Assembly: GCA_963676395.1 (NCBI GenBank)
Contig: OY781066.1
Location: 1,088,001-1,152,000 of the forward strand
From: a bacterium
Lineage (GTDB): Bacteria > Fidelibacterota > Fidelibacteria > Fidelibacterales > Fidelibacteraceae
Length of the DNA: 64,000 bases
Direction of reading: 5' to 3'
Part shown: positions 24,001-27,000 of the stretch, piece after piece
Layout: each line of letters opens with the position of its first letter
Numbering within the stretch: the first letter of the stretch is position 1
Made by a program: the position numbers

Positions 24001-27000
24001 TCACTTTTTTATTATTTGCCACTGCCTGCATCTCGGAAATAATTGATATGGCAATTTCATGTGGTAAAGTTCCGCCTATACTCAATCCTGCCGGTGTATA
24101 TAAGGTATCAATATTTGCTTCCGGAAATGCCTGAAGTAATTCGTCTGTCATGCGTTTCTTTTTCGTACGCGAAGAAACCAAACCCACATATTTCGGTTTC
24201 CAATCAGAGCCATATATTTTGTGCAATACAACACCATCGTATTTATGTTGGTAGGTTGCAATCACGTAAAAAGCATCCTTTTCCACTATACGATCACTCA
24301 AGGCATCAACAAATGGAGCGTGGATCTTTTCGTCGACATCAGGTATCTGGGCCAACACATCTTCACGATCATCGATTAAACAAATATGATAATTCAACTG
24401 CTTTAAATGATAGCTCAATGCCTTACCGATATGTCCTGCACCAAAGATGTAAACAAATTTTTTGGGGGCAAAATACTCAAAGAACAAGGTTGCCGTTCCT
24501 CCGCATATCATGCCGGTATCGGTGCCTTTTCCAGGCTCATTCATATTATAGGTTTCCGTGCAGTTCTTCTTGATTTCAAACAGACCCATTGCTTTTTCAA
24601 TGGCCATCTTCTCAATGCTTCCGCCGCCGACCGTACCGGAAATCTTACCGTCCGGATACACGATCATTTTGGTTCCGGTCGCCGCGGGTCCTGAACCTTC
24701 CTTGGCTATTACCGTGACGAGAACACCGCATATGCTGCCTTCAGCCAGATCTAATAATTCCATGTATAAACTTTTCACTCGTAATCCTCTTTAAATAAAC
24801 TGATCATTTCTATGCCTTTTAAATGGCGAGTCGGCGTTGCCTGAAGTACATATTTCTTAGCGATTTCATAATCTGTTATCAATGTGCCCGAAACCATATC
24901 CATACCATATTCGAATAGTATTGGAGAGAGCGGTGTGGTGGGCCCCAGTATAACATTGTAACTTCTCTCAGGAAGATTTTCCAGTATGCCATCAAAGGTA
25001 TGATTTGTAATGGATGTGGCTGTTAATGCGGCAACATCTACCTTAGGCAAGAATTTGGGGATATCCGATTCTGTATGATCGCCCGGATGAGGCTGTTTCT
25101 CAAAAATATAACATTTCCTGTAGTGAGCTTTTTGATCATCCAAAAAAGGGAAATGCCCAATAATACCAAGCACCTTATTCTTACCTTTTTCGCTGATGAC
25201 TTTCTTTGCATTTACCACACGATATTTGCCGATGGTCTTCGAGAGTCCACAATTGATCGCCGCCATACCGATGGAAGCTTCCAGTAAATTATCTGAGAGT
25301 GCGTACCTTGCCAATTCTTTTAAATTCAAATCCTCGAGATTTCCGGCTTTTGTCACATTCACGCCATGACCGCAATATTTAATAGTCGAGGCAATCCCGC
25401 ACATTTCCTGTGTTTTAACCAATACAGAATGAACGCCAATGATCACTTCTTGGACGTCAAGCTCCTCAATGTCTGAAATTAATCGTTCGAGTAGTTTCAT
25501 TTAAAAGATCAATGAATTGGTAACTTCGAGACTCAAGGCCAATACCAGCGATAAAACCGGCAAAGCAAAAGACATGGTTTCAGAATTTCTTTTCCATTCA
25601 AGCGCTTCTTCATTCTTGAGATAAAGAGCAACGAGTCCGGCACTTACAATGGCATTCGTTGCGATAAACATTATAGACTGAGCCAAAGGAAGATTATTCA
25701 AACCCATCTCAGGCTTGAACACCAATGTTTGCAGAAGGGTAAAAGCCACAATCCAGCCTAAACCGACAAGAAATGACGATAAAACGATCTTGCGCCCTTT
25801 GTATGCATAAACAAAAGCAAACACAACCAACCCTTCTAAAAGGATGGAGATCGCGGGATTGACCACAGACATAGGTGAACGCGTTGGCAAAGCCAGATCG
25901 ATCAACTTAATCGATGCGGCTATCATAGATACCCACAAAACTGCCTGTGTTTTGTTGCTTTTCTTGTAAGCGTTATACATAAAATACATGCCAATGGGAA
26001 ACATGAACATACCGGACATACCATGAGGTAAAAGGTGTAAAACATAACCAAGTGTTGCTTCGGCAACCCCCCAAAGTGCTCCCATAAACAAGATCATTAA
26101 AATTGCTGATTTGTTTTTCATTGTATTCTCTCCATTTTACTATTGGTTTAAACTTTCTATAAAATCTTTGATCATGCGCAAACTGACCACATTGCGATAT
26201 TTCGCGGTTGAACGAGCGTCATCAATGGGCTTGATCAACATATCATAATCAGCCAAGATCCTTGATACATCTTCATTCAATTCCTTAACTGTTCTGTTTT
26301 TTAATTTATTATCTATGTCTGTAGAATGCACGATCTTCGCGGAAACCGACCCCAGGGCAATGCGAATATCAACAACTTTTCCATCCTGTACATCGGCAAG
26401 ACCCAGCATAGACGCTTTAGTTAAACTCATGCCTTTACGCTGTCCCAGCTTTCGATAATAATTATATTCATACACTTTATTCGGAATGATAATATCCGTG
26501 ACAAGTTCATCCGCTTTTAAGCAAGTCTTTTTCAAACCGACAATAAACTCATCCATACTAACGGTTCTTGAACTCTTAGCATTCTGCAGAACGATCTTAG
26601 CATCGACCGCATAAAGGTAAGGCAGTGTATCTCCGGCAGGTGAGGCATTACAAACATTTCCTGCAAGGGTTGCCATATTGCGAGTTGGTGGTGACGCCAT
26701 TTTTTGGATCATGTCTCTGAAAACCTTGGGAACGATCTCGTTTTCGACGATATCAGTCAAAACAGCACAAGCACCCATATGGATCTGATCACCTTCAACA
26801 TAGATCTTTTTTAATTCTTCAAGATGATCAATGAACAAGAGCGGTTTGTCAAACTTCGGCGCCAAGGCGAATCCCCGGGCACGCTGGACCATAAGATCCG
26901 TACCACCGGCCATGACCGTACACTCTTGCTTGGCTAAAATATTCAGTGCTTCATGTAAATTATCAGGACGAATGCCATCTACCATAAGCCTTCTCCTATT

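What a model noticed while it worked through the whole genome (the two positions that open the first line are those of the whole stretch)
25501..26121. New ECF S-component family encoded inside xanthine-dehydrogenase maturation clusters: candidate molybdenum-cofactor impo [...]
g00962 (206 aa, no Pfam family) has the fold of an ECF transporter S-component and sits between the xanthine dehydrogenase subunits and DUF364-XdhC-NTPase. Its homologues in several phyla almost always lie next to XDH, XdhC or MocA genes. It defines a new S-component family tied to molybdoenzyme maturation, with Moco or a molybdopterin as the candidate substrate.
Evidence so far: No Pfam match for this protein at E 0.1. 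Model pLDDT 92; the top 14 of 48,161 chains are all ECF S-components or kin, best Z 11.6, rmsd 3.5 over 168 residues. 66 of 75 new loci from Bacillota, Aminicenantes, Acidobacteriota, WOR-3 and others have XDH, XdhC or MocA genes within 6 kb; 37 of 38 closer loci too. In 151 phylum genomes, the 40 with a strong orthologue (E < 1e-50) include none of the 32 with MoaC. EcfT (g00140) is present.
(Added by a program. Inside this text positions count along the whole contig: contig position 1,088,001 is position 1 of the stretch shown here. "Call 12" and the like, gene names such as g00115 and contig names such as C1 are that model's own, and its searches are not shown. The text may have been shortened before it was handed on; [...] marks where a part breaks off. 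The agent that wrote the report below was given it as the finding of a first reader that could run no searches.)

Follow-up and report, generated by a model that had tools for sequence, protein, structure and literature searches.

The report
Candidate bacterial molybdenum-cofactor importer
A membrane protein shaped like a vitamin-uptake subunit sits among molybdenum-enzyme genes in bacteria that mostly cannot make the molybdenum cofactor, so it probably imports the finished cofactor from outside, which would explain how these bacteria run such enzymes.

Summary
Observation confirmed. The 206-aa gene has no Pfam or NCBIfam family. Its model matches S-components as the top 14 of 48,161 chains. 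The genome has two xanthine-oxidase-family enzymes but no moaA, moaC, moaE, moeA or modA hit. Among 161 phylum genomes, a homologue occurs in 71 of 87 with such enzymes and no synthesis genes, against 4 of 31 with synthesis. New here: homologues also flank DMSO-reductase and AOR-family enzymes, and distant ones sit behind Moco riboswitches (23 of 30 hits), which favours the cofactor over a purine. The commonest neighbour is a THEP1 NTPase (64 of 80 loci), fused in distant kin through an EcfT-like domain. Against: no riboswitch on this clade, 18 of 50 outside carriers can synthesise Moco, no binding data. Best reading: importer of metal-loaded Moco (0.68); energy source open. The scan noted sister systems before on other DNA (e1-6982379, e1-6449762, e1-6688172).

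The parts
25501..26121 (-). S-component-fold membrane protein, 206 aa, six core helices plus a C-terminal helix; candidate Moco-binding and translocating subunit
   Evidence: conserved W17 G18 E21 A22 G25 H29 K72 N88 P89 E96 W123
23509..23982 (-). THEP1-type NTPase (PF03266), Walker A and B intact; commonest neighbour of the family; candidate energiser or cofactor-processing enzyme
   Evidence: fused to the S domain in distant kin
24775..25500 (-). DUF364/DUF4213 protein, candidate cytoplasmic pterin-handling protein
   Evidence: PMC2954201 passages; in 10 of 80 loci
23984..24778 (-). XdhC, Moco chaperone and insertase for xanthine-oxidase-family enzymes
   Evidence: TIGR02964 below cut-off; role from established knowledge
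29631..30224 (-). MocA-like Moco cytidylyltransferase (Moco to MCD)
   Evidence: TIGR03310 146 bits, cut-off 186; in 54 of 80 loci
26140..29532 (-). Xanthine-oxidase-family enzyme 1: large subunit 27439-29532, 2Fe-2S 26979-27452, FAD subunit 26140-26988
39678..43408 (-). Xanthine-oxidase-family enzyme 2: FAD 42470-43408, 2Fe-2S 42006-42473, large subunit 39678-41999
30221..39681 (-). Anaerobic purine-breakdown genes: HyuA/allantoinase-like, SsnA-like, YgfK, YgeY, carbamoyltransferase, PLP enzyme
   Evidence: YgfK and YgeY over cut-off, SsnA and YgeW below; pathway per bioRxiv 10.1101/2025.04.24.650524 passages
20611..23497 (-). PLP enzyme (22037-23497) and 8-oxoguanine deaminase (20611-22023) closing the cluster

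Best explanation
The gene encodes the substrate-capture subunit of a salvage importer for metal-loaded pyranopterin cofactor (Moco, or a nucleotide form of it). Shown: S-component fold, co-location with cofactor-handling genes, absence of the synthesis pathway in the host. Inferred: the protein binds external Moco in a polar pocket and topples to release it inside; MocA converts it to MCD; XdhC inserts it into the two xanthine-oxidase-family enzymes of the purine-breakdown cluster; DUF364 may hold or process it. The energy source is open: the genome's scattered EcfT and EcfA-like pair (about 0.45), the co-encoded THEP1 NTPase with or without EcfT (about 0.35), or none as in solitary S-components (about 0.2).
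For: Fold. Need: the own genome (one contig, 95.3% complete) has no MoaA, MoaC, MoaE, MoeA or ModA-family hit; its one PF00994 hit reads as CinA by my recall of the sequence. Pattern: homologue in 71 of 87 XDH-positive genomes without moaC/moeA, 4 of 31 with, 5 of 34 and 1 of 9 XDH-negative; 2 of the 16 misses hold a more divergent homologue and 5 have the cluster or fusion cut at a contig end. Outside the phylum 32 of 50 carriers lack both MoaC and MoeA, including all 9 isolate or single-chromosome genomes tested. Three enzyme families as neighbours: XO family, DMSO-reductase family in L145 and L155, AOR family in L070 and L078. 41 of the 73 Mo-linked loci show none of six purine-pathway markers; none shows purine markers without Mo genes. 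Moco riboswitch RF01055 within 300 nt upstream of a distant homologue in 23 of 30 hits; those homologues align with the family at HHalign 96.8%, 171 columns.
Against: No binding or transport data. No Moco riboswitch in the window, in the 40 strong-orthologue genomes or in 26 close-family loci scanned; the riboswitch-bearing forms are sister groups on long branches, and 19 of the 23 hits are one genus. 18 of 50 outside carriers have MoaC and MoeA. Best Z of 11.7 is under the 13 advised for helical bundles and Foldseek E is 0.05. Genomes are related and mostly metagenome-assembled; anaerobic lifestyle may confound the phylum pattern. 6 of 80 loci show no Mo-related gene. The own genome has no NCS2 or BMP purine importer. 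Free Moco is labile (recalled), so its supply outside cells is uncertain.
Confidence: 0.68

Rival explanations
1. It is a membrane-bound cofactor-binding, storage or sensing protein for molybdoenzyme maturation and does not translocate anything; the NTPase is a metallochaperone-like partner.
For: The S fold is also used by receptors and MreD (PMC11109136 passages; MreD at Z 6.8). No EcfT or EcfA in any of 80 loci. 18 of 50 outside carriers can make Moco.
Against: Does not explain how hosts without synthesis get cofactor, nor the 71/87 versus 4/31 split. Distant forms carry an EcfT-like domain and in L054 a TonB-dependent receptor in the same operon. Small residues G18-x3-A22 in helix 1 are conserved at 100% and 94%.
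Confidence: 0.12
2. It imports the enzymes' substrate (urate, xanthine or another purine).
For: The window cluster is a purine-breakdown operon. The own genome has no NCS2 or BMP hit. Its closest fold, YkoE, binds the pyrimidine ring of thiamine (PMC5037267 passages).
Against: Neighbours include DMSO-reductase and AOR enzymes. Dedicated purine importers lie in the same loci: NCS2 in L102, L136, L152 and a BMP ABC system in L119. Purine riboswitches there sit on the NCS2 genes, not on this gene. The own genome has a CNT nucleoside transporter. A purine importer should not avoid Moco-making genomes.
Confidence: 0.08
3. It imports molybdate or tungstate, or a metal-free precursor (cPMP, MPT), for a synthesis route that uses unrecognised enzymes.
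For: Moco riboswitches often control molybdate and tungstate transporters (PMC9971707 passage). No ModA-family hit in the own genome. Invariant K72 and common R124 could bind an oxyanion. Peng et al. leave open new synthesis components.
Against: Molybdate or MPT needs MoeA, and cPMP needs MoaE too; MoeA is missing in 40 of 40 strong carriers and 32 of 50 outside ones, MoaE in the own genome. No cluster gene resembles a radical-SAM or sulfur-transfer synthase.
Confidence: 0.08
4. It imports a selenium compound or another accessory ligand for selenium-dependent molybdenum hydroxylases.
[quoted passage not shown]
Against: YqeB found in 0 of 20 phylum carriers and 3 of 10 outside carriers. It would not explain the Moco-synthesis pattern.
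Confidence: 0.02

Closest known systems
ECF transporter S-components (YkoE 5EDL, FolT 4HUQ/5D0Y, RibU, ThiT, BioY, PanT, BtuM)
   Same: Six-helix fold, size about 200 aa, small residues in helix 1, an extra C-terminal helix as in YkoE.
   Different: No sequence match to any Pfam S family; 9-17% identity; tied to pterin enzymes and a THEP1 NTPase; no S-component for Moco found in my literature searches.
Group I ECF transporters (YkoEDC, CbiMNQO)
   Same: Distant homologues encode S, an EcfT-like domain and an NTP-hydrolysing domain together, often in one chain.
   Different: The NTPase is PF03266, not an ABC ATPase. The window's own clade has no T gene in any of 80 loci.
ModABC, TupABC, WtpABC molybdate and tungstate importers
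   Same: Serve molybdoenzyme maturation; can be under the Moco riboswitch (PMC2408646 passages).
   Different: Binding-protein ABC systems for the oxyanion, found with synthesis genes; this protein is found mostly without them.
Dietary Moco uptake in C. elegans
   Same: Use of Moco made by another organism (PMC9793310, search listing and start of abstract only).
   Different: Animal system; no shared protein known to me.

Membership tests
ECF S-component (any group) | Six-helix S-component fold | tested here: met
   Top 14 of 48,161 chains, best Z 11.7, rmsd 3.4, 167 aligned; Foldseek TM 0.59, E 0.05
ECF S-component, group II | Small-x3-Ala motif in helix 1 that docks on EcfT | tested here: inconclusive
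   G18-x3-A22 at 100% and 94% of 150 rows; equivalence to the motif position not checked by superposition
ECF S-component, group II | Shared EcfT and EcfA/A' encoded elsewhere in the genome | tested here: inconclusive
   EcfT over Pfam cut-off; EcfA-like pair at C1:2169990-2171461, first protein best matches TIGR04520 at 109 of 315 bits; EcfT in 35 of 40 strong carriers but also 46 of 80 non-carriers; 45 of 50 outside carriers
ECF S-component, group II | Physical association with the EcfAA'T module | not tested
   No complex with EcfT was modelled
ECF S-component (any group) | High-affinity binding and transport of a micronutrient | not testable with these tools
   Needs purified protein or cells
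ECF transporter, group I | Own T and A genes in the same operon | tested here: not met
   No EcfT or T-like hit in the window cluster or in 80 loci; a T-like domain exists only in distant sister groups, with a non-ABC NTPase
Described S-component families (Pfam) | Match over a family cut-off | tested here: not met
   0 families for the query; 1 of 45 homologues hits PF12822 at E 0.3
NCS2 purine permeases | PF00860 domain, about 450 aa | tested here: not met
   206 aa, no PF00860 match
S-fold receptors (5TMR kinases, MreD) | Fused signalling domain or mre operon context | tested here: inconclusive
   Best 150 relatives are 107-281 aa; known fusions are to an NTPase; the 'longer' search was insensitive; the genome's MreD is another gene

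The most novel reading that the evidence does not exclude
This is the minimal member of a widespread bacterial Moco-salvage transporter superfamily in which an S-component is driven by a THEP1-family NTPase in place of the ABC ATPases EcfA/A'. That would supply a bacterial cofactor importer, show Moco cross-feeding among anaerobes, and give a cellular role to a P-loop NTPase family whose human member (NTPCR/C1orf57) had no known function in the abstract I saw.
Probability: 0.3. Interest if true: 0.92.

Novelty: new variant of a known kind. Interest (0 to 1): 0.82.

Why it matters
Peng et al. 2018 (PMC6147048, passages) list 305 bacteria with molybdoenzymes but no Moco pathway and call for tests of whether these enzymes use Mo. 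This family offers a concrete answer, import of finished cofactor, and makes it testable in cultured strains (Trichococcus, Clostridium hydrogenum, Defluviitalea, Vallitalea). It would add Moco to the cofactors exchanged in anaerobic communities and could govern which bacteria degrade urate. The NTPase link suggests an ECF-like mechanism without ABC ATPases. My searches found no paper describing such a transporter; the library lacks most subscription journals.

Tried and rejected
Complex prediction of the S protein with the NTPase gave no answer (score 0.00); it is no evidence either way. No RNA holder was listed for the cluster. The search for longer forms with the 150-row profile found nothing among 7,999 candidates, although fusions exist, so it was insensitive. 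PDB sequence searches were blank. The ESM Atlas gave unnamed clusters and a weak PF09605 lead at 0.76. Promoter and terminator scan showed nothing usable. Rfam on the cluster found no credible RNA. The phylum-wide PF03266 search was swamped by short P-loop hits (139 of 161), so it gave no clean co-occurrence table. EcfT co-occurrence is not specific. The careful tree did not finish; only the quick tree was read, and it warns of long-branch joins. The Fisher P is not used because kin are not independent. Supplements of PMC11109136 held no NTPase or molybdenum term in the files searched; one PDF could not be read. Supplements of Peng 2018 (organism lists) and of the bioRxiv preprints were not seen and may bear on which carriers were already counted as orphans. 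Pocket geometry could not be inspected, so residue roles are inferred.

Full report
Observation. The ORF at 25501-26121 on the minus strand encodes 206 aa. It lies in a run of same-strand genes from 43408 to 20611, mostly with gaps under 25 nt. It has no Pfam family at E 1 and no NCBIfam family at E 0.1. Its neighbours are a three-subunit xanthine-oxidase-family enzyme and a MocA-like transferase upstream, and DUF364, XdhC and a PF03266 NTPase downstream. Further upstream are YgeY, YgfK, SsnA-like, HyuA-like and carbamoyltransferase genes and a second xanthine-oxidase-family enzyme, the gene set of anaerobic purine breakdown (bioRxiv 10.1101/2025.04.24.650524, passages). Named relatives place the host in Marinisomatota.

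Family and fold. phmmer found 548 clusters at 50% identity with E <= 0.001. In 150 aligned members G18, E21, G25, K72 and P89 are invariant and W17, A22, H29, N88, E96 and W123 nearly so. The AlphaFold2 model has pLDDT 95.4, with six core helices and a C-terminal helix. Against 48,161 chains the top 14 are ECF S-components or kin, best YkoE 5EDL (Z 11.7, rmsd 3.4, 167 aligned); the first unrelated chain has Z 6.9. Foldseek agrees on 5EDL only weakly (E 0.05, TM 0.59). YkoE also has an extra C-terminal helix (PMC5037267, passages). The Z value is under the tool's caution line for helical bundles; the coherence of the list is what carries the assignment.

The host cannot make Moco. In the own genome (one contig, 95.3% complete) there is no hit for MoaA, MoaC, MoaE, MoeA or the ModA family; the controls rang in 11 to 14 of 14 reference genomes. 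The one PF00994 hit reads as CinA by my recall of the sequence. Without MoeA neither molybdate nor metal-free MPT is usable by the known route (established knowledge), so what is needed is metal-loaded cofactor. MocA and XdhC, the steps after Moco, are kept.

Phylum pattern. Of 161 genomes, 81 match the profile: 40 strong and 41 weak, one of them marginal. MoaC is in 38, MoeA in 40, an XO-family large subunit in 118. A homologue occurs in 71 of 87 XDH-positive genomes without synthesis genes, 4 of 31 XDH-positive with them, 5 of 34 XDH-negative without and 1 of 9 XDH-negative with. No strong carrier has MoaC or MoeA. I looked at 8 of the 16 misses: 2 hold a more divergent homologue beside an NTPase, 5 have the cluster or fusion cut by a contig end, 1 has a T-like remnant. 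These genomes are related, so the split is not 118 independent events.

Other phyla. A pattern scan of GTDB gave 155 loci, of which the best 80 were kept, 8 of them labelled Neomarinimicrobiota. 73 of 80 hold an XDH subunit, XdhC, MocA/MobA or DUF364; one more, L155, lies beside a DMSO-reductase-family enzyme, as does L145. The NTPase is present in 64 of 80, within two ORFs in 51; MocA in 54, XdhC in 39, DUF364 in 10. I tested the genomes of 50 of the 72 other loci, chosen for diversity and isolates: 18 have both MoaC and MoeA, 32 have neither. All 9 isolate or single-chromosome genomes among them lack both. For background, Peng et al. count 305 orphan-molybdoprotein bacteria beside roughly 3,700 Mo users (PMC6147048, passages; the second number is my arithmetic from 3269 = 88.8%); the samples are not comparable in design. 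On the quick tree, MoaC status changes 13 times within the family.

Distant homologues. I fetched 40 of the 47 weak places. In 37 the S-like gene is fused to or beside the NTPase or its T-like partner; the other 3 lie beside an AOR-family gene (Pfam-checked for 2; the third read from its sequence). Fifteen are 570-620 aa fusions, and such fusions have at least 633 relatives, including Bacteroidota and Acidobacteriota. Their N-terminal domain aligns with the window family (HHalign 96.8%, E 2e-10, 171 columns). The middle domain, folded alone (pLDDT 82), has CbiQ and EcfT as the top two matches over nearly its whole length (Z 6.8 and 6.6, rmsd 5.7 and 7.3, tied with unrelated rows in Z) and EcfT as the top two Foldseek rows (E 0.2, probability 0.93 and 0.84): suggestive, not proven. 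Four loci have a MobA-like gene next door, and L054 reads S, T-like, TonB-dependent receptor, NTPase, DUF364.

Riboswitches. RF01055 gave 30 hits in 24 of 80 carrier genomes. 23 lie 22-175 nt upstream of a distant homologue's match on the same strand, 21 of them over the gathering score; they come from 4 genera in 3 families, 19 from one genus. Of the other 7, three precede TonB-dependent receptors, one mobA-moaA, one an FmdE gene, and two lie about 2.3 kb upstream of moaC. The motif represses expression in response to Moco in E. coli (PMC2408646, abstract and passages). The limit: none was found in the window, in the 40 strong-carrier genomes, or in 26 of the 80 close-family loci that I scanned, although 21 of 50 outside carriers have the motif elsewhere. 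The tree puts the window's family on one side of a branch (support 93) with the riboswitch forms as long-branch sisters. The riboswitch evidence is therefore by descent, not direct.

Purine rival. The own genome has no NCS2 or BMP importer but has a CNT nucleoside transporter. In related loci, NCS2 permeases (L102, L136, L152) and a BMP ABC system (L119) sit beside the cluster, and purine riboswitches mark the permease genes. 41 of 73 Mo-linked loci show no purine-pathway marker in the stretch held, and none shows the reverse. The gene follows the cofactor, not the substrate.

Energy source. No EcfT or T-like gene lies in any of the 80 loci; 14 hold some ABC ATPase, of which I checked one. The own genome has a 204-aa EcfT before truA, a divergent EcfA-like pair 2 Mb away, below cut-off, and a BioY that could be the module's client. 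EcfT is in 35 of 40 strong carriers and 46 of 80 non-carriers, and in 45 of 50 outside carriers. The helix-1 motif needed for docking on EcfT (PMC11109136, passages) may be G18-x3-A22. The NTPase keeps Walker A and B. Its fusion behind a T-like domain in sister groups suggests it powers transport there; in this clade it could instead trim nucleotide forms of the cofactor. This is unresolved.

Mechanism and verdict. Shown: fold, gene order, missing synthesis, distribution, riboswitch control of sister groups. Inferred: capture of external Moco, release to the cytoplasm, conversion by MocA, insertion by XdhC, with DUF364 (a possible pterin-related role, PMC2954201, abstract and passages) as helper. 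The outer-membrane step in this host is unknown; its closest TonB receptor is only 24-30% identical to the riboswitch-linked ones. It works like an ECF S-component; membership of group I fails and of group II is untested. Literature searches found no described bacterial Moco importer; one preprint speculates on molybdopterin uptake by T11SS proteins (passage). Earlier notes of this scan describe the S plus T-NTPase sister form and another ECF candidate on other DNA; they are unchecked and add no support, and no look-alike of this protein was on file. Confidence in Moco import 0.68; interest 0.82; a new variant of a known kind.

Noticed in passing
G000:C1:151405-152019 and C1:2169990-2171461 (L001, L002): The ECF module is split: a short EcfT before truA, and a divergent EcfA/A'-like pair 2 Mb away, well below NCBIfam cut-offs. 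BioY is at C1:2086136-2086678.
   Followed up: partly
L175:3887-6187, L176:647-2911, L178:312-2597: TonB-dependent receptors directly behind Moco riboswitches in genomes lacking moaC and moeA; candidate outer-membrane Moco receptors.
   Followed up: partly
window 20611-43408: A 2,8-dioxopurine-type purine cluster in hosts without YqeB (0 of 20 phylum carriers), whereas the gut strains studied all have YqeBC; these enzymes may be selenium-independent.
   Followed up: partly
L174:1506-2138: An FmdE/zinc-finger gene behind a Moco riboswitch.
   Followed up: no
L070, L076, L078: A separate subfamily of the S-like protein lies beside aldehyde:ferredoxin oxidoreductase genes without the NTPase; a candidate tungsten-cofactor importer.
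   Followed up: partly
L144 and L159 (Vallitalea): The gene stands alone, ahead of a glycine riboswitch and alanine symporter, with no Mo gene or NTPase nearby.
   Followed up: no
P0315: An 884-aa S-T-NTPase fusion with an added SAM-dependent methyltransferase domain.
   Followed up: no
window 26140-27159: The longest ORF for the FAD subunit overlaps the 2Fe-2S gene; the likely start is the ATG at 26988 (282 aa).
   Followed up: yes
window 16960-19282 (+): A 674-aa protein with a PHP-like start and an ATPase-like end, followed by a 111-aa ORF, next to the cluster; resembles a defence or mobile gene pair (recalled, not searched).
   Followed up: no
G000:C1:1375838-1376467 and C1:2075328-2076008: Two similar-looking membrane proteins of 209 and 226 aa with no Pfam family.
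   Followed up: no
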